A stretch of 64,000 bases of DNA from a virus: positions 23,607 through 87,606 of the IMG/VR virus record IMGVR_UViG_3300020152_000002. The stretch is one strand, 5' to 3'. The translations under genes and the position numbers were made by a program. Positions 50,251 through 56,228 of this stretch are shown here, piece after piece; within the stretch, counting starts at the first letter, position 1; the number at the start of each line of letters is the position of its first letter. The notes beneath the pieces were generated by a model. That model was not told where the DNA came from. It worked only from the letters and a program-made list of their open reading frames with translations, and ran no database searches.

Positions 50251-52761
50251 ATGACCGCAGCAGGATCGAACAAGCTCCCCCGACCATCCGCGTTGAAGCA
50301 GTATGCGGATGCGGGGTGGAAGTTCGTCCCATTGCACCACTGGGCTGAAACCCGGAAGCTGCCGCCGACACCGAAGCACCCTCAAGGTCGCACCCTCGAA
50401 CTGGGCAAAGCGCCCATCGGGAAGGCGTGGACGAAACACGGAGTCGATCTCAAGGCGGCCACGGCCCACGCCAACGCAGGCAAGAACGTCGGCGGCATGA
50501 TCCCGCCCGGCTGGGCGGTGATCGACGTTGACCCTCGGAACTTCAAAGGCGAGGACAATAGCTGGGAACGCTTTCAGGCTGATGTCGGGCTTGACCTGTC
50601 TAAATACGCGGCGGTCAAAACTGGTTCCGGCGGCTGGCACGTCTTCACGCGCATCCCGGAAAACTTCAAAGGCGTCGTCAAGATCGAAGCCTACCCCGGC
50701 ATCGAGTTCAAGCAGATCGGCGTTCAGGTCGTCGCGGCCGGTTCGATCCACCCGAAGACGCAGGGCTACTACGAGTGGATGGACAGCACGGTCTCGCTCG
50801 CCGAGACGGCATACGTCCCCGACAAGGTGCTCGAACTCTACAAGGTCACGCGCCCGCTGATCTCGGGATCGCAGGGCGGCGACACATGGGGCAGCCTGAC
50901 CGTCGATCAGATCGAAGAAGGTCTCGGCCTTCTGGACCCGACGCAGTTCCAATCTCACGACGACTGGTTCGGGCTTATGTGCTCGGTCCACTGGCTGTCC
51001 GGCGGCGAAGCGCGGCAGCAGTTCGTCGAGTGGTCCGCGCAAGACCCGTCTTACGCCGACCAGATGGAACACGTCGCAATGCGCTGGGACACCCTTGGCC
51101 GGGGTGCGGCGTCCGCGCAGTTGGTCGCGCGTGGCGGACAGTTCTTCAAGGCGCTCAAGCAACACGCCGGGGTGGAGCCTCACGACGGCCGGTTCGCGCT
51201 CAAAGTGGAGCGCGCCTTCACCGATCTGTCGCCGGAGGAACTGAACGAAGACCTGAAACTGATCGGCGCGAAGAACGAGCGCGTCCGCGAGGAAGCCTAT
51301 CAGTCCGCCGAAGCTATCGTCGATGCGCTGAACGAGAAGCACTTCGTGCTGAACTATCGCGGTAAGACGGTCATCGGAACGAAGCGCCGGGTCGAAGAAA
51401 AGAACGGCGTCTACGACAAATACGAGTTCCAAGACGCAGCCAGCTTCAAGCTGTTCTACTCGAACCAGAAGATGCCGGATGGCGTCAGCTATGGCGAGTA
51501 TTGGTTGGCGGCCAAGCACCGTCGCACATACGACGGCTTCGACTTCCGGCCCGACGAGCCGCCCGGCGCGTATCGCACGATGTCGGGTGAACTGATCCTG
51601 AACCAGTGGACCGGCTTTGCCATCCAGCCCGCGCCGGGCGACTGGTCCATGTTCGACGATCTGCTGCTGAACATCATCTGCGGCGGCGATCAGATCAAAT
51701 ATCAGTTCCTCTTGAACTGGTGCGCGCACACCTACCAGAAGCTCTCGGGGCCGGTCGGCGTCGCCGTCGCGCTCAAGGGGAAGAAGGGCACCGGCAAAAC
51801 GTCCTTCTGGAAGGTCTGGTCACGGCCGTTCGGTCCTACGCACTCCATGACGACCGCCAAGATGGAGAGCGTGTTCGGTCAGCACAACGGTCGAATGCAC
51901 GCAAAGATCGCTGTCGGGTTGGAAGAAGCCTATTTCGCCGGGTCGAAAATGGCGGAAGCTCAACTCAAGGATTTGATCACAGGCGATACGTTCGGCATCA
52001 ATGAGAAGTTCCTGCCGGAATACGCGCAAACGAACCATACCAAACTCGTCGTGATGACGAACGACGACTGGGCCGTCCCGGCGACAGAAGACGAACGGCG
52101 GTATTTCGTTACGGAGACCACGACGGGCCGGAAGGATGATCACACCTTCTGGACTGCCTTCAACGAGCAGATGTATGAGAAGGGCGGCTGCGAAGCGTTC
52201 TTCTACGACATGCTCCGCAGGGACATCAGTGGCTTCAACCCCTACCGAGACGTGCCGCGCACCGAGGAACTACTAGGCCAGATCGAGATTACGCGCGGCC
52301 CGATCATCGACTGGCTGCAAGAACGCATGACGTTCGGAGAATACGGCTTCGGCTATGCGTGGTCGAGCAGTAAAGGGTGGGCGGTCCCGAAGGCTGAACT
52401 TTGGGAAGACTTCAAGGCGTGGCAGATCAACTCCCCCCGTGGCCGATACGATAGCTCGATCCGCTCGCAGAACCAGTTCACCCGAGAGCTTAAACGGGTG
52501 ATCCCCGAGGAACTGTTCAAGGCCACCACGGCGATCCCGCCGCCGGAGTATCAGGCGTCCGTGAAGACCTACGCGGCGACGATCAACGGCACGACCTACC
52601 ATCTCTCAAACGTGTTCCGCTTCCCCTCGTTCGACACCTTGAAGAATGCTGTCGCGGCGAAGTATGGGATACACTTCCAAGAGATCGACCTGTCGGACAT
52701 TGAGATCACCGACGCGGACGACATATCAACATTCAGCATCGACGAGTGGGACATTCTATAA
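50251..52761 (+). CDS. primase-polymerase / PriCT-2 / SF3 helicase
   Basis: VIDVDPRN, KTGSGGWH, HDDW...V..WS, GKKGTGKT, LEEA, TNDDWAVP..DERRYFV. Confidence 0.92.
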   Translation: MTAAGSNKLPRPSALKQYADAGWKFVPLHHWAETRKLPPTPKHPQGRTLELGKAPIGKAWTKHGVDLKAATAHANAGKNVGGMIPPGWAVIDVDPRNFKGEDNSWERFQADVGLDLSKYAAVKTGSGGWHVFTRIPENFKGVVKIEAYPGIEFKQIGVQVVAAGSIHPKTQGYYEWMDSTVSLAETAYVPDKVLELYKVTRPLISGSQGGDTWGSLTVDQIEEGLGLLDPTQFQSHDDWFGLMCSVHWLSGGEARQQFVEWSAQDPSYADQMEHVAMRWDTLGRGAASAQLVARGGQFFKALKQHAGVEPHDGRFALKVERAFTDLSPEELNEDLKLIGAKNERVREEAYQSAEAIVDALNEKHFVLNYRGKTVIGTKRRVEEKNGVYDKYEFQDAASFKLFYSNQKMPDGVSYGEYWLAAKHRRTYDGFDFRPDEPPGAYRTMSGELILNQWTGFAIQPAPGDWSMFDDLLLNIICGGDQIKYQFLLNWCAHTYQKLSGPVGVAVALKGKKGTGKTSFWKVWSRPFGPTHSMTTAKMESVFGQHNGRMHAKIAVGLEEAYFAGSKMAEAQLKDLITGDTFGINEKFLPEYAQTNHTKLVVMTNDDWAVPATEDERRYFVTETTTGRKDDHTFWTAFNEQMYEKGGCEAFFYDMLRRDISGFNPYRDVPRTEELLGQIEITRGPIIDWLQERMTFGEYGFGYAWSSSKGWAVPKAELWEDFKAWQINSPRGRYDSSIRSQNQFTRELKRVIPEELFKATTAIPPPEYQASVKTYAATINGTTYHLSNVFRFPSFDTLKNAVAAKYGIHFQEIDLSDIEITDADDISTFSIDEWDIL

Positions 52762-54923
52762 TGACCAACAGCAACTACCTTTCTGGACCGTCCACTCGGG
52801 CGCAGGTGGTGACACGCCGCACCTACAATCGCCCGCTCGACGAAGCTGGGGGCATCTTCGAGACGTGGGAACAGACGGTGGATCGCGTCATCGGGCACCA
52901 GCGGTGGCTGTGGGAGCGCGCTGTCGAGCGGGAACTGACGCTCGAAGAAGACGCCGAACTGACGGTTCTGCGGAAACTGATGGTCGAACGCAAGGTCACG
53001 ACTTCGGGTCGCACCCTCTGGCTCGGCGGGACCAACATCGCCAAGACGCGCGAAGCGTCGCAGTTCAACTGTTCTTTCCTGCGCGTCGAGACCGTCAGCG
53101 ACATCGCGGATGGGTTCTGGCTGCTGTTGCAGGGCTGCGGCGTCGGATTCGAGCCGATCACCGGCGTCCTGAACGGCTTCGCGTCGGAAGTGGAGCTTGA
53201 GATCATCCCTTCGACGCGCACCGAGAAGGGCGGACGCGAGACCAACAAGGAGACGTTCAAGAACGGCGTCTGGACCATCAGCATCGGCGACAGCGCAATG
53301 GCGTGGGCCAAGGCTGCGGCCAAGGTGCTCGCCGCCAAGCGCCGCGTCCGTAAGCTGGTCCTCGACTTCTCCGAGATCAGGCCCGCCGGGCTGCGCCTGA
53401 ACGGTTATGGCTGGATCAGCAGCGGCTACGAACCGTTCGCCAAGGCCATGACCGCCATCGTCGATCTGATGAACCGGCGCGTCGGGCAAATCCTGTCCCG
53501 GATCGACATTCTGGACGTGATGAACCTGCTGGGCACCACCCTGTCGTCGCGCCGGTCGGCCGAGATCGCGGTGATCCCGTGGGTGGACCCGGAGTCCGAG
53601 CCCTTCGCCGTCGCCAAGCGCGACTACTTCGCCTACTACGGCCGCGACCACTTCTCGAAGGACGAGCGCAAACCCGTCCCGGTTTATGGCTCCGCCGACC
53701 TGTCCGGCGAGCCGGTGCGTCACTTCCAACCCGGCGCACAGATCATGCCGTGGGGCAGCGAAGAAGACGGCGCTATCCTCGTCGGCGAGAACGAATGGGT
53801 TAGCGCGGCCGACGTGTATCAGCCGTATATCCAGCGCGCCCAGTCCAACAACTCGCTGATCTTCTACGACCGTCCGACCCGCTATGAACTGTTCTACGTC
53901 TTCGACCTGATGGCGAAGGGTGGCGGTTCTGAACCGGGCTTCATCAACGGCCGTGAAGCGCACCGCCGGGCTCCGTGGTTCAAGGGCGTCAATCCCTGCG
54001 CCGAAATCCTGCTGGGCAACAAGTCGTTCTGCAATCTCGTCGAGACCGACGCCGGGAAGTTCAACGGCGATCTGGAAGGGCTGCAACAGGCCCTCTATCT
54101 GGCGGGCCGCGCGAACTACCGTCAGACCTGTGTCGATCTGCGCGACGAAGTGCTGCAAGCCTCGTGGCACGAACTGAACACCTTCCTCCGCCTCTGTGGC
54201 GTCGGCCTGACCGGCATCGTCCGCTGGGAGGGCCACAACGACCCCGAGCAAATCCGGCTGTTGCGTCAGGCAGCGCAGGAAGGCGCTCACTCCATGGCCG
54301 ATGAACTGGGCCTGACGCGCTCGAAGGCGATCACCACGATCAAGCCGTCCGGCACCCTGTCGAAGATCATGGACACGACCGAAGGCATTCACCGCCCGCT
54401 CGGCCGCTACGTCTTCAACAACATCAACTTCTCGAAGTTCGATCCGATCATCCCGCGTTTGAAGGCGGCTGGCTACAAAGTCTTCGACAGCCCGGTTGAC
54501 GATACCGCCGTGCTGGTCTGTTTCCCTGTCTGCTATGAAGATGTCGATTTCGACGTGGTGGACGGCAAGGACGTGAACCTTGAGACTGCCGTTCAGCAGT
54601 TGGAACGCTACAAGCTGTGGATGGACAACTACGTCGATCACAACTGTTCCATCACCATCAGCTACTCCCCGGACGAAGTTCCGGCGATCATCGACTGGCT
54701 GCTGGAAAACTGGTCCCACTATGTCGGCGTGTCCTTCATCTACCGCAACGATCCGACCAAGACAGCGGCCGATCTCGGCTACCAATACCTGCCGCAGGAA
54801 GTCGTGACGCGGGAAGTCTACGAAGACTATCTCGCCATCCTGTCGCCGCTGGACTGGACCGGCACCGAGTCCTTCGACGAGATCGCCGATCCCTGTTCGA
54901 CGGGAGCCTGCCCGATCAAGTAG
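52761..54923 (+). CDS. nrdJ: class II (B12-dependent, monomeric RTPR-type) ribonucleotide reductase
   Basis: RRTYNR, SGRTLW.GG, FNC, RRSAEI, NPCAEI, FCNL, TTIKPSGTLS, C-terminal CSTGACPIK. Confidence 0.93.
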   Translation: MTNSNYLSGPSTRAQVVTRRTYNRPLDEAGGIFETWEQTVDRVIGHQRWLWERAVERELTLEEDAELTVLRKLMVERKVTTSGRTLWLGGTNIAKTREASQFNCSFLRVETVSDIADGFWLLLQGCGVGFEPITGVLNGFASEVELEIIPSTRTEKGGRETNKETFKNGVWTISIGDSAMAWAKAAAKVLAAKRRVRKLVLDFSEIRPAGLRLNGYGWISSGYEPFAKAMTAIVDLMNRRVGQILSRIDILDVMNLLGTTLSSRRSAEIAVIPWVDPESEPFAVAKRDYFAYYGRDHFSKDERKPVPVYGSADLSGEPVRHFQPGAQIMPWGSEEDGAILVGENEWVSAADVYQPYIQRAQSNNSLIFYDRPTRYELFYVFDLMAKGGGSEPGFINGREAHRRAPWFKGVNPCAEILLGNKSFCNLVETDAGKFNGDLEGLQQALYLAGRANYRQTCVDLRDEVLQASWHELNTFLRLCGVGLTGIVRWEGHNDPEQIRLLRQAAQEGAHSMADELGLTRSKAITTIKPSGTLSKIMDTTEGIHRPLGRYVFNNINFSKFDPIIPRLKAAGYKVFDSPVDDTAVLVCFPVCYEDVDFDVVDGKDVNLETAVQQLERYKLWMDNYVDHNCSITISYSPDEVPAIIDWLLENWSHYVGVSFIYRNDPTKTAADLGYQYLPQEVVTREVYEDYLAILSPLDWTGTESFDEIADPCSTGACPIK

Positions 54924-55001
54924 GTGCGAGGGGCTTGAAAATCCCCTTCACCGTCCCGCCTACTGACAGCGCCTCCGGCCTCTTGCCGGGGGCGTTGTGC
55001 C

Positions 55002-55253
55002 ATGGGGACCGCTATGATCGACACGCCGACCAAGAGCCGCCTGCGCCGGTTTTTCGACCGATGGGAGGAACAGGTGGACCGCTGGGCGATGAGCCCGTGG
55101 ACCAGCCTCCATATCTGGACCTTCGGGGTGCTCTGGATCGTCACCGAGGCCCTGCGCGGGAAGATGATCGGCTGGGATGGCGTCGCCACGCTGGCGGCGC
55201 TTGAGATCGCCCTGTCTATTCGCAGGCACCAGCGACGACACGATCCCGGTTGA
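55002..55253 (+). CDS. small membrane protein
   Basis: Two hydrophobic segments; start 55002 or 55014. Confidence 0.55.
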   Translation: MGTAMIDTPTKSRLRRFFDRWEEQVDRWAMSPWTSLHIWTFGVLWIVTEALRGKMIGWDGVATLAALEIALSIRRHQRRHDPG

Positions 55254-55280
55254 CAGCCTCCGGCCGCTCCGGCATACAGA

Positions 55281-55610
55281 TCGCTCGTCGTGGCCTTCCA
55301 GCCCGTTGCGACACGGAACTGGATCAAGACGAGCGAGGCGGTTGCCGGACACGAAGCCGGAGGCCCCGAGCACAGGATCAGGGACGAGCCAAGTAGCCCT
55401 GATCTGACACTCCACCCGTCGCCCTCTACGGAGCGCGGTTCGGGAGAGTGGAGACCGGGACGGGACGACGACGGACTGGGCGAAGGGACTGCAAAGCCTC
55501 GGACCCCGACACGAAGCTCTCCCGTCCGGTTTCGCCCTCGCAGCCGGGCTACAATAGGCAGCCAGACATACGAAGCCCCGGTCGTCCGCAGACGCCGGGG
55601 CTTCACTGTT
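55281..55610 (+). ncRNA. candidate structured non-coding RNA
   Basis: TTGACA at 55250 plus GCATACAGAT; at least 5 stems; repeated GACACGAAGC; terminator hairpin at 55572-55604. Confidence 0.6.
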
Positions 55611-55650
55611 TCTCGGGCTTGCCCGATTTCTTCACGCAGTCCTGATCAGA

Positions 55651-55794
55651 TCAGTCCCGGCGCTGCGACGACGGCTGTCCGGCGTCGGGGGCCTTCGTGG
55701 GGCGGGTCTGGTCGGCGGCCGAAGACCGGCCGCCCTTGCCGCCGGACTTGTTCTGGACCTTGCCGGGATCGGCGCGGGTGGGGTTGTCTGCCAT
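55651..55794 (-). CDS. 47-aa basic peptide
   Basis: GGAGAGGAAG RBS; MADNPTRADPGK... Confidence 0.55.
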   Translation of the reverse strand: MADNPTRADPGKVQNKSGGKGGRSSAADQTRPTKAPDAGQPSSQRRD

Positions 55795-55931
55795 GATCGT
55801 CTTCCTCTCCGGTAAGCCGCCTAGCGCGGCCGTGGAGAGGCAACGCGGGATCGCCCGGCCGGTTGCAGCAGAAAGGCCCCGCAGATCGCTCCACGGGGCC
55901 TCCCTTGGCCGTCGATGCGGCTGCCGGTGCC

Positions 55932-56228
55932 TTACGCGCCTTCGGTCTTCACCGGGCCGCCCGGCAGGAAGACATAGGCGTCCAGATTGTCCTTGAGCGG
56001 ACCCGCCGACAGGTCCGAGACCTTCGTCACGGTGTCGAAGTAGCTCTCGCGCACCGACGAATCGACATCGGTGCCGGTGGCGACGTTCGACAGGGCGGTT
56101 CCGGCGGCGGCCTTGATCTGCGCGTCGGTCTGCGCGTCGTCGCAGTTGATGAGGACGGCGCGGACGCCGTTGACCATGGGGGTGTGCGCGGCGTTGCTGC
56201 GCGAGACGAGATACAGGGCTTCGGCCAA
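55932..56228 (-). CDS. displaced virion structural protein, paralogous to the N-terminus of the decoration protein
   Basis: GGAGAG RBS plus TTG start; late-type promoter TTGAAA-N18-TATGGT; ALYLVSRSNAAHTPMVNGVRAVLINCDD resembles ALFKVVLQSGAFTTLGGNNAMIVEADN. Confidence 0.7.
   Translation of the reverse strand: MAEALYLVSRSNAAHTPMVNGVRAVLINCDDAQTDAQIKAAAGTALSNVATGTDVDSSVRESYFDTVTKVSDLSAGPLKDNLDAYVFLPGGPVKTEGA

What the first reader, a model, noticed from the sequence alone, without database searches (positions are those of the whole stretch)
55250..55632. Promoter- and terminator-bounded ~330-nt structured ncRNA with repeated GACACGAAGC motifs
Seen in sequence: TTGACA (55250) overlaps the stop of the upstream gene and is followed by GCATACAGAT. 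A dense run of stems follows: TCGCTCGTC(55281)/GACGAGCGA(55328) enclosing TCCAG/CTGGA and CCGT/ACGG; CCGG-ACACGAAG-CCGG; GGATCAGGG/CCCTGATCT; CTCCAC/GTGGAG; ACCG-G-GACGGGA/TCCCGTC-CGGT. It ends with the hairpin GAAGCCCCGG..CCGGGGCTTC and a CUUG hairpin plus T-rich tail. GACACGAAGC recurs exactly at 55348 and 55508, with variants GACACGGAAC (55310) and GACATACGAAGC (55565). Competing pairings exist (CGGGAGAG 55441/CTCTCCCG 55517; GGGCGAA 55478/TTCGCCC 55531). No ORF with a convincing RBS covers the region. Inference: a phage-encoded RNA presenting a repeated motif, acting as a protein sponge, anti-defence or antitoxin mimic, or conformational switch. I do not recognise it as a known family.
Basis: partly seen in the sequence, partly recalled or inferred. 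Interest (0 to 1): 0.8.

Follow-up and report, generated by a model that had tools for sequence, protein, structure and literature searches.

The report
Unclassified structured RNA gene in Brevundimonas phages
Between two converging gene blocks, this Brevundimonas phage carries a roughly 345-base gene for a folded, non-protein-coding RNA that its relatives preserve by compensating base changes, that matches no catalogued RNA family, and whose job is still unknown.

Summary
Window 55254-55645 is a gene-free gap between converging genes of an 87.6-kb Brevundimonas-type siphophage. The same gap is unannotated in 5 of 5 GenBank relatives (Delta, BabaJaga, Fanboy, Poludnitsa, Leszy) and occurs on one metagenome contig.

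The fold is conserved through compensatory changes. In the 5' domain 10 of 36 pairs changed on both sides, and 7 of 47 in the central domain. 0 of 500 shuffles reached either count. Indels are not multiples of three and substitutions show no codon periodicity. No Rfam family reaches its threshold, and ARAGORN finds nothing.

A + strand RNA is favoured by an invariant TTGACA, two tandem terminators and an excess of G-U pairs, but no discrete transcript was shown.

The "competing" pairings can form in all seven sequences.

My best reading is a trans-acting, compactly folded RNA that binds protein. That function is inferred only.

Side finding: Leszy carries a 125-nt inserted domain. It shares 28 identical bases with an unannotated structured gap in the tRNA/tmRNA cluster of Caulobacter jumbo phages.

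The parts
55002..55253 (+). Upstream 83-aa ORF (relatives start at the ATG at 55014, giving 79 aa). Two hydrophobic stretches, no family. Always sits directly before the RNA.
   Evidence: 9 protein clusters, 70-89% identical. No Pfam or PHROGs family. The RNA follows it in 7 of 7 loci seen.
55250..55255 (+). -35-like hexamer TTGACA, invariant in 7 of 7 sequences. In the relatives it lies after the stop codon.
   Evidence: Putative only: the promoter scan reports no site.
55273..55278 (+). Weak -10-like hexamer CATACA (CATAAC or CATTGT in relatives), 17 nt after the -35.
   Evidence: It fails the scan's criteria.
55281..55336 (+). P1: long three-tier hairpin with a CCU bulge and apical loop UGCGAY.
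   Evidence: Helices 1-3: 22 pairs, 7 of them changed on both sides, 96-100% of cells paired.
55345..55360 (+). P2: 4-bp hairpin with an 8-nt loop RCACGAHG. This is the first 'GACACGAAGC' copy.
   Evidence: helix 4: CCGG/CCGG becomes GCGG/CCGC in the metagenome contig. The loop letters differ among relatives.
55373..55406 (+). P3: hairpin with a 13-nt apical loop AYGAGCCAAGUAG. GAGCCAAGUAGC is invariant. Leszy's 125-nt domain is inserted right after it.
   Evidence: helix 5 (2 of 10 pairs changed on both sides).
55408..55450 (+). P4: hairpin with internal loops, capped by a C(UACG)G loop at 55427-55430.
   Evidence: helix 1: 16 pairs, 2 changed on both sides, 97.5% of cells paired.
55451..55533 (+). 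P5: long-range helix (55451-55473 with 55512-55533). It encloses a 4-bp helix (55477-55480 / 55505-55508) and a hairpin (55485-55500) capped by GCAA at 55491-55494 (GAAA in Leszy).
   Evidence: helices 2-4 (3 of 18 and 1 of 4 pairs changed on both sides).
55534..55549 (+). P6: short hairpin GCCY/RGGC.
   Evidence: helix 5: C-G, U-A and U-G are all seen at one pair.
55478..55537 (+). Alternative helix GGGCGAA (55478-55484) with UUCGCCC (55531-55537). It cannot coexist with P6 or with the base of P5 unless it forms a pseudoknot.
   Evidence: 7 of 7 pairs can form in 7 of 7 sequences. The first pair reads G-C, G-U or A-U.
55441..55524 (+). Second alternative pairing, CGGGAGAG (55441-55448) with CUCUCCCG (55517-55524).
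   Evidence: 7 of 8 pairs are invariant in all sequences and the first pair is broken in 6 of 7. No covariation either way.
55551..55557 (+). Conserved unpaired ACAAYAG.
55572..55612 (+). Terminator 1: 10-bp G+C-rich hairpin followed by a U-rich stretch. Likely bidirectional; in the Delta group a T-run also follows it on the - strand.
   Evidence: stem kept through changes on both sides.
55613..55633 (+). Terminator 2: TCGGGCTTGCCCGA followed by TTTCTTC.
   Evidence: the only terminator-like site in 54800-56000.
55646..55798 (-). Converging 50-aa basic ORF. It is the last gene of the long leftward module.
   Evidence: 66-74% identical in the 5 relatives; no family.

Best explanation
Window 55279-55633 (+ strand) is a gene for a roughly 345-nt non-coding RNA. 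It folds into six helical elements (P1-P6) and ends at two tandem intrinsic terminators.

Shown: the fold is under selection across four sequence lineages, and the region is not protein-coding.

Inferred, fairly strongly: the + strand is the functional strand. The RNA is made by the host polymerase, either from the TTGACA promoter or as the tail of the 83-aa ORF's message.

Inferred, weakly: it acts in trans as a compactly folded RNA that binds one or more proteins, as scaffold or decoy, rather than as a short base-pairing regulator. The invariant apical loops (13-nt GAGCCAAGUAG loop, CACGA loop, UGCGA loop) and the ACAAYAG strand would be the contact surfaces. The UACG- and GNRA-capped hairpins would be folding elements. 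The P3/P4 junction is a permissive site for an added domain, as in Leszy.
For: Homologs: 5 of 50,697 phage records match at 81-82.5% identity, all Brevundimonas siphophages, plus 1 metagenome contig. The gap is unannotated in all 5 records.

Covariation: 10 of 36 pairs in the 5' domain changed on both sides, 98.1% of cells are paired, 0 of 500 shuffles reach either value, and slid controls give 0-1. The central domain has 7 of 47 such pairs, 95.3% paired, 0 of 500 shuffles, slid controls 0-3. The full-length RNAalifold fold has 109 pairs, 13 of them compensatory.

Conservation: the RNA is as conserved as the neighbouring genes (83% against 82-86% versus Delta). The central domain reaches 89%.

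Not coding: there are 15 gap columns, with indels of 1, 2, 4 and 125 nt. Substitutions by codon position are 19/27/19 and 33/35/30. No frame is open in all homologs.

Strand: 35 G-U cells against 4 A-C cells. 431 of 446 cells are standard pairs on + and 400 of 446 if read on -. The alifold energy is slightly better on +. TTGACA is invariant, and two terminators have U-tails on +.

Single copy per genome. The 12-nt complement of the P3 loop is absent from the phage genome even with 2 mismatches, which argues against a phage mRNA target for that loop. Leszy tolerates a 125-nt, strongly folding insertion (z -5.85) at a helix junction. GCAA changing to GAAA in Leszy keeps a GNRA loop. Delta's annotation lists no phage RNA polymerase, so host transcription is expected.
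Against: No transcript ends or abundance are known. In two soil metatranscriptome runs, contigs identical to the window cover the RNA and the neighbouring genes at similar low depth (about 5), which could be DNA carry-over or ordinary phage transcription.

The promoter scan finds no site and the -10 is poor. The - strand folds equally well as a single sequence, and the strand statistics were computed on a structure derived from the + strand.

Only four effective lineages exist, so covariation counts rest on few events. Nothing identifies a protein partner. Host mRNA targets could not be examined.

Conserved alternative pairings fit a switch at least as well as a rigid scaffold.
Confidence: 0.5

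Rival explanations
1. Base-pairing regulatory RNA aimed at host (Brevundimonas) mRNAs, using ACAAYAG or an apical loop as the seed.
For: Stand-alone RNA with its own terminators and invariant unpaired stretches. No phage target exists for the P3 loop, which leaves the host as the possible target.
Against: About 345 nt with six helices is far larger than typical seed-pairing sRNAs (recalled general knowledge). No host genome could be reached, so nothing supports any target.
Confidence: 0.15
2. Cis-acting end-of-operon element. It would be a long structured 3' UTR of the primase-RNR-ORF83 operon that stabilises the message and, with the bidirectional hairpin, insulates the two converging transcription units.
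For: It sits exactly where rightward and leftward modules meet. There is no terminator between ORF83 and the RNA. The -10 is weak. Terminator 1 reads as a hairpin on both strands.
Against: About 290 nt of covarying helices with invariant loops lie upstream of the terminators. That is far more than termination or 3'-end protection needs. TTGACA stays invariant although it is non-coding in the relatives.
Confidence: 0.15
3. Conformational switch (ligand-, protein- or temperature-sensing). It would toggle between P5/P6 and the alternative helices 55478/55531 and 55441/55517, perhaps gating read-through into antisense transcription of the leftward module.
For: Both alternative helices can form in 7 of 7 sequences. 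One shows G-C, G-U and A-U at its first pair. The same 3' strand also covaries with P6 (helix 5).
Against: No + strand gene lies downstream. Two tandem terminators suggest constitutive stopping. The alternatives are mostly invariant, so they carry no real covariation signal. The only riboswitch-like match, c-di-GMP-I at 17.4 bits, fails its own helix test.
Confidence: 0.1
4. Replication-origin transcript: a structured primer or R-loop RNA for the phage origin, in the manner of plasmid RNA II (recalled analogy).
For: It lies between the prim-pol/RNR genes and the topoisomerase/ThyX genes. The central part of the transcript has several G runs.
Against: Strong terminators would release the RNA. 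The region is G+C-rich with no AT-rich unwinding stretch, and GC skew shows no turn there. Strand-specific G-U pairs point to a free RNA fold.
Confidence: 0.05
5. Not an RNA at all: either a small protein gene or a DNA-level site (cruciform, recombination or packaging site).
For: One + frame and one - frame are fully open across the gap in this phage. The reverse strand folds as well.
Against: No frame stays open in all homologs, indels are 1, 2, 4 and 125 nt, and there is no codon periodicity. 35 G-U cells against 4 A-C cells would be mismatches in a DNA cruciform or on the other strand.
Confidence: 0.03

Closest known systems
Large phage-associated structured RNAs of unknown function, such as GOLLD and ROOL (named from recall; both are Rfam families)
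   Same: Phage-borne, stand-alone, several hundred nucleotides, many covarying helices, no known job.
   Different: No Rfam family reaches threshold anywhere in the 64-kb window. No such family is among the 10 sub-threshold rows at E<=10. This RNA is shorter, known only from one small phage clade, and the genome has no tRNA genes beside it.
c-di-GMP-I riboswitch aptamer (Rfam RF01051)
   Same: Three short conserved stretches line up in this phage: GGCGAA, GCAAAGCC.CGG and AGCCGGGCU.
   Different: 17.4 bits against a threshold of 35. One hairpin is 6 nt where the model has 19. The second model helix is not kept in the Delta group, where the 3' strand instead covaries with a local hairpin. No downstream gene to regulate.
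Small phage RNAs at gene junctions, such as P22 sar RNA (RF00262) (biology recalled)
   Same: Short phage transcripts ending at a strong hairpin between opposing genes.
   Different: The 20.1-bit match (threshold 43) covers only terminator 1 and its flank. Those RNAs are under 100 nt and act by antisense pairing (recalled). Here about 290 nt of fold lies upstream and does not overlap the converging gene.
phi29 packaging RNA (pRNA) (recalled)
   Same: A phage-encoded, host-transcribed structured RNA that works as part of a protein machine in a prolate-headed phage. It is an example of the scaffold mechanism proposed here.
   Different: No pRNA row appears at threshold or among the 10 sub-threshold rows. 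Delta-type phages have both terminase subunits. No evidence links this RNA to virions.
Unannotated 348-nt gap in the tRNA/tmRNA cluster of Caulobacter jumbo phages (RB23, C1, C2, J4, BL47, two Bertelyvirus records)
   Same: It shares with Leszy's inserted domain 28 identical bases and the same layout: a long outer stem of different sequence plus three hairpins. It is strongly structured (z -6.1) and has no Rfam family.
   Different: The rest of that gap does not match models R1 or R2 of this RNA (best 10.6 and 7.0 bits, neither in the gap). The window's own RNA lacks the domain.

Membership tests
Any Rfam 15 family | Covariance-model score at or above the family's gathering threshold | tested here: not met
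   0 matches in the 64-kb window. 10 sub-threshold rows at E<=10; the best are 23.5 bits (threshold 100), 20.1 (43) and 17.4 (35). Leszy's version also gives nothing.
c-di-GMP-I riboswitch (RF01051) | Score at threshold, and both model helices conserved in homologs | tested here: not met
   17.4 of 35 bits. The second helix is not formable in the Delta group, where the strand pairs locally with covariation.
c-di-GMP-I riboswitch (RF01051) | Binds c-di-GMP and controls a downstream gene | not testable with these tools
   No + strand gene follows. Binding needs an assay.
tRNA / tmRNA | tRNA-like acceptor and T arm (plus tag reading frame for tmRNA) | tested here: not met
   ARAGORN finds 0 genes in the window. 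No tRNA or tmRNA row in Rfam scans.
Repeat-array RNAs (type III antitoxin-like or repeat-mimic decoys) | Tandem or multiple copies of one conserved unit | tested here: not met
   No tandem repeat. One 13-nt two-copy direct repeat whose letters differ in all relatives.
Independently transcribed bacterial-type ncRNA gene | Own promoter | tested here: inconclusive
   TTGACA is invariant in 7 of 7 sequences with a CAT-containing hexamer 17 nt later, but the scan reports 0 promoter-like sites.
Independently transcribed bacterial-type ncRNA gene | Intrinsic terminator at the 3' end | tested here: met
   Hairpin at 55613-55626 with a T-rich tail, preceded by the 10-bp hairpin at 55572-55604, which is kept by changes on both sides.
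Independently transcribed bacterial-type ncRNA gene | A discrete transcript exists | tested here: inconclusive
   RNA-library contigs cover it and its neighbours alike at depth about 5. Contigs cannot show transcript ends or strand.
Conserved structured RNA | Base pairs kept through compensatory change beyond controls | tested here: met
   10 of 36 and 7 of 47 pairs; 0 of 500 shuffles reach either; slid controls give 0-3.
Protein-coding gene | A reading frame kept among homologs, with third-position bias | tested here: not met
   no frame open in all 5 loci checked, indels not in threes, substitutions 19/27/19 and 33/35/30.

The most novel reading that the evidence does not exclude
The RNA is the first seen member of a hidden set of large, tertiary-folded stable RNAs of Caulobacterales phages (a ribozyme or the RNA core of a ribonucleoprotein). 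These RNAs would exchange peripheral domains. The domain inserted in Leszy is the same module that sits in an unannotated RNA inside the tRNA/tmRNA arrays of Caulobacter jumbo phages, which hints at a role in translation or RNA processing.
Probability: 0.12. Interest if true: 0.8.

Novelty: new variant of a known kind. Interest (0 to 1): 0.55.

Why it matters
Bacterial and phage RNAs longer than about 300 nt with many covarying helices are few. Those whose function was later solved turned out to be ribozymes, ribonucleoprotein cores or unusual assemblies (recalled general knowledge).

This one sits in a culturable system: phage Delta on Brevundimonas subvibrioides, a relative of the Caulobacter cell-cycle model. 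That makes it directly testable by deletion, Northern blot and pull-down.

It also shows that current phage annotations (5 of 5 GenBank records) leave a conserved RNA gene blank. The Leszy/RB23 link suggests RNA domains move between unrelated phage RNAs.

The limits are real. The family is known from one small clade and no function is shown.

Tried and rejected
Searches for wider homologs all failed.
- An 18-mer found 0 stretches in IMG/VR.
- A 14-mer gave 118 or more stretches, all chance. nhmmer over the 128 loci L008-L135 gave a best E of 0.55.
- A gapped 24-base pattern found 0 in metagenome, genome and viral collections.
- blastn against plasmids gave no match.
- The neighbours' proteins occur only in the same 5 phages.
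- ORF83 found nothing in IMG/VR alone or as an alignment, and 1 locus in JGI metagenomes.

Model searches: R1 matched 0 of 10 more distant viral records that carry a relative of the nearby topoisomerase-like gene. R2 matched 0 of 2 of them, while hitting its own genome, Delta and Leszy at E 1e-30 to 1e-35. Those loci also lack the converging gene layout.

Five further ORF83 protein clusters from Logan/ENA (P0002, P0004, P0007-P0009) probably carry more RNA variants.

Expression: 20 runs were listed and 4 were laid. RNA-library contigs cover the RNA and its neighbours at similar depth, so they give no evidence for or against a discrete transcript. Uncovered stretches mean nothing there.

GC skew shows no origin-like turn at the site.

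Ideas rejected: c-di-GMP-I; a glycine-riboswitch-like 12.5-bit row; tmRNA/tRNA; a tag-like reading frame (lost in the Delta group through a 2-nt indel); repeat sponge; coupling to RNR type (the window has class II, Delta has class I, and both have the RNA).

Host genomes could not be searched.

Literature:
- The Delta genome paper PMC9437464 does not mention this gap (passages found by term search, plus section 18 read).
- PMC10070969 reports no ncRNA and 0 tRNAs for Leszy and Poludnitsa (passages only).
- The viral structured-RNA catalogue PMC10690425 lists motifs of 29-151 bases that needed at least 3 IMG/VR regions (passages only). Its supplementary tables are closed, so overlap cannot be excluded.
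- The searches found no description of this RNA.
Full report
WHERE IT IS. The window is bases 23607-87606 of an 87,606-bp virus record with direct terminal repeats (a 127-bp terminal repeat). The finding lies in a 392-bp gap, 55254-55645. On the left is an 83-aa ORF on the + strand (55002-55253). On the right is a 50-aa basic ORF on the - strand (55646-55798).

Upstream on + are a prim-pol/helicase-type protein (836 aa) and a class II, B12-type ribonucleotide reductase (725 aa; Pfam; 45% identical to an annotated nrdJ). Downstream on - are a 120-aa ORF and a 319-aa protein annotated 'DNA topoisomerase' in Delta.

In phage Delta's published map, genes 56-59 run rightward and genes 60-119 leftward. 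The gap is therefore the meeting point of two converging modules.

THE OBSERVATION. The + strand folds better than all 100 dinucleotide shuffles (z -4.0). So does the - strand (z -4.3). The scan finds one terminator-like site, 55613-55626 on +, and no sigma-70-type promoter. GACACGAAGC occurs twice in the genome, both times here. No tandem array exists.

RELATIVES. blastn against 50,697 phage records finds 5, all Brevundimonas siphophages of 85.6-87.2 kb (Delta, BabaJaga, Fanboy, Poludnitsa, Leszy), at 81-82.5% identity over 90% of the query. In each record the stretch is an unannotated gap of about 370 bp (about 500 bp in Leszy) between homologs of the same two small ORFs.

A protein search with the 83-aa ORF found 9 clusters at 70-89% identity. 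Only one of their contigs could be fetched, a JGI metagenome contig (L136). It carries a more divergent copy of the RNA: 77.6% identity overall and 70.7% in the 5' domain.

That gives four effective lineages: the window, the Delta group of four, Leszy, and the contig.

The RNA is as conserved as the flanking genes (83.4% against 82-86% versus Delta). Its central domain is more conserved, at 89%.

IT IS A CONSERVED FOLD, NOT A GENE FOR PROTEIN. RNAalifold on six full-length sequences predicts 109 pairs, 13 of them kept through changes on both sides. With the seventh sequence added, I tested two sub-alignments against controls.

In the 5' domain, 36 pairs show 98.1% of cells paired and 10 pairs changed on both sides. 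0 of 500 shuffles reach either value, and slid controls give 0-1 such pairs.

In the central domain, 47 pairs show 95.3% paired and 7 pairs changed on both sides. 0 of 500 shuffles reach that, and slid controls give 0-3.

Examples of the changes:
- TCCAG/CTGGA, TCCGA/TCGGA and TCCGG/CCGGA.
- CCGT/ACGG to CCTC/GAGG.
- CCGG/CCGG to GCGG/CCGC.

The caveat given with the tool applies. Related sequences can beat column shuffles without structure, and four lineages are few. The slid controls and the number of independent helices with double changes make chance unlikely.

Against coding:
- The alignments hold 15 gap columns, with indels of 1, 2, 4 and 125 nt.
- Substitutions by position modulo three are 19/27/19 (versus Delta) and 33/35/30 (versus the contig).
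- No frame is open in all five loci examined. One + frame and one - frame are fully open in the window, as expected at 64% G+C.

WHICH STRAND. On the + strand-derived structure, 431 of 446 cells are standard pairs. Only 400 of 446 would be if the - strand were the RNA. There are 35 G-U cells against 4 A-C cells. This test is biased towards +, because the structure was predicted on +.

Folding each strand's alignment on its own gives a small advantage to + (-54.5 vs -49.2 and -42.1 vs -39.6 kcal/mol).

Independent of folding, three observations favour +:
- TTGACA is invariant in 7 of 7 sequences, and in the relatives it lies after the stop codon.
- A CAT-containing hexamer follows after 17 nt.
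- Two successive hairpins carry U-rich tails on +.

The first hairpin also reads as a terminator on - in the Delta group. That would stop the leftward operon before it enters the fold. I rate + at about 85%.

ANATOMY (window coordinates):
- P1 55281-55336: three stacked helices, a CCU bulge and loop UGCGAY.
- P2 55345-55360: loop RCACGAHG.
- P3 55373-55406: 13-nt loop with invariant GAGCCAAGUAGC.
- P4 55408-55450: capped by C(UACG)G.
- P5 55451-55473 with 55512-55533: encloses a 4-bp helix and a hairpin capped by GCAA (GAAA in Leszy, so a GNRA loop is kept).
- P6 55534-55549.
- Unpaired ACAAYAG 55551-55557.
- A variable linker.
- Terminators at 55572-55612 and 55613-55633.

THE REPEATED MOTIF IS NOT CONSERVED. 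The two exact copies in this phage correspond to GCACGACG and GACATGAAGC in the Delta group and Leszy, and to GCACGATG and GACACGAAGC in the contig. The 'variant' at 55310 is half of a covarying stem, and the one at 55565 lies in the variable linker. Only CACGA / CAYGA is shared. The sponge-by-repeats idea therefore loses its basis.

THE 'COMPETING' PAIRINGS ARE CONSERVED. GGGCGAA (55478) with UUCGCCC (55531) can form in 7 of 7 sequences. Its first pair reads G-C, G-U or A-U. The same 3' strand also covaries with P6 (helix 5). The 5' G also covaries with the 4-bp helix inside P5 (helix 3).

CGGGAGAG (55441) with CUCUCCCG (55517) is invariant for 7 of its 8 pairs, so it is uninformative.

With the base of P5 the first alternative would form a pseudoknot whose one-base linker looks strained (my inference). 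Otherwise it is a second conformation. I cannot decide between these.

WHAT IT IS NOT. No Rfam family reaches threshold in the window or in Leszy's version. ARAGORN finds no tRNA or tmRNA.

The best thematic near-miss is the c-di-GMP-I aptamer at 17.4 bits against a threshold of 35. It lines up three short conserved stretches in this phage only. Its second helix cannot form in the Delta group, where that strand instead pairs locally with covariation.

The 'sar' row covers only the terminator.

The RNA is single-copy and was not found in any of the following:
- plasmids;
- IMG/VR, JGI metagenome contigs and 185,579 species genomes, by exact pattern;
- ten more distant viral records that share the topoisomerase-like gene.

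It is therefore not tied to that gene. It is not tied to RNR class either: the window has class II and Delta has class I. It has always been seen with the 83-aa ORF (7 of 7 loci).

HOW IT MOST LIKELY WORKS. Shown: a selected RNA-type fold with invariant loops and terminators.

Inferred: Delta's annotation lists no RNA polymerase, so the host enzyme would transcribe the RNA.

The following features are those of compactly folded RNAs that work through shape and protein contacts, not of short seed-pairing regulators (my inference, from general knowledge of such RNAs):
- its size;
- six helices;
- UNCG- and GNRA-type caps;
- a 13-nt invariant loop with no complement in the phage genome, even with two mismatches;
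- tolerance of a whole extra domain at a junction (Leszy).

I therefore favour a trans-acting protein-binding scaffold or decoy. I put about 85% on 'conserved structured RNA' and about 30% on this mechanism. The rivals are a host-directed base-pairing RNA, a cis-acting operon end or insulator, a switch, and an origin transcript. They are listed with their tests.

EXPRESSION. One search found 20 public runs that hold part of the stretch, 6 of them on record as RNA. I laid contigs of three RNA runs and one DNA run. In two small soil metatranscriptomes, contigs identical to the window cover 55063-55432 and 55496-56210 (55133-55432 and 55526-55905 in the second run), as well as the neighbouring genes, at depth about 3-6. 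This shows presence in RNA libraries only. Contigs give no ends, no strand and no level, and DNA carry-over is possible.

SIDE FINDING. Leszy's RNA has 125 extra bases between P3 and P4. They fold on their own into a long stem bearing three hairpins (z -5.85).

A 28-base stretch of the insertion is 100% identical to a site in seven Caulobacter jumbo-phage records (RB23, C1, C2, J4, BL47 and two Bertelyvirus records). In RB23 the site lies in an unannotated 348-nt gap between two tRNA-Met genes, next to a tmRNA called by ARAGORN.

That gap folds strongly (z -6.1) and has no Rfam family. Its 3' part has the same layout as the Leszy insert, but with a different outer-stem sequence. This is the pattern of a shared RNA module rather than a transposon end.

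Models R1 and R2 do not match the gap. The 20-base core is absent from IMG/VR. What the module does is unknown.

NOVELTY AND SCORE. I found no description in the two genome papers on these phages or in five other literature searches. A viral RNA catalogue whose supplements I could not open lists only motifs up to 151 bases that recur in IMG/VR, where this RNA has no relative.

It is a new RNA family of a known broad kind: a phage-encoded structured non-coding RNA. It is real and testable in a culturable system, but narrow in distribution and without a demonstrated function. Interest 0.55.

Noticed in passing
L004:2158-2282 (phage Leszy); insertion point equals window 55406/55407: A 125-nt, independently folding domain (z -5.85) is inserted in Leszy's copy of the RNA. 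The other five phages and the metagenome contig lack it.
   Followed up: yes
L145:1234-1581 (Caulobacter phage RB23, MZ574433.1 145496-145843): An unannotated 348-nt gap lies between two tRNA-Met genes, next to an ARAGORN tmRNA (L145:546-978). It folds very strongly (z -6.1) and has no Rfam family. It shares 28 identical bases and the domain layout with the Leszy insert. It is probably an undescribed stable RNA of Bertelyvirus-type jumbo phages.
   Followed up: partly
G000:C1:22001-23000 (just left of the window): A 1-kb stretch has only 46.7% G+C in a 63.6% genome. It probably corresponds to the 1.3-kb CtrA-site-rich intergenic region described for phage Delta (PMC9437464).
   Followed up: no
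window 55799-55931: The non-coding stretch upstream of the 50-aa ORF (- strand) is more conserved than the genes around it: 88-93% over 75-108 nt versus Delta, Leszy and the contig. It holds a G+C-rich hairpin and is likely a promoter or terminator unit.
   Followed up: no
window 52746-54923 versus L003:363-3175: This phage has a single class II (B12-type) ribonucleotide reductase where Delta and its kin have class I alpha plus beta subunits. The module was swapped while the flanking primase, the 83-aa ORF and the RNA stayed.
   Followed up: partly
window 55646-55798 (-) and 55002-55253 (+): The two small ORFs flanking the RNA have no Pfam or PHROGs family. One is a 50-aa basic, glycine/serine-rich protein. 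The other is an 83-aa protein with two hydrophobic stretches. Both co-occur with the RNA in every locus seen and are first candidates for partners.
   Followed up: partly
G000:C1:10993-11027 (-): A 35-nt stretch is 83% identical to the RNA's terminator region. It is probably just a similar terminator hairpin.
   Followed up: no
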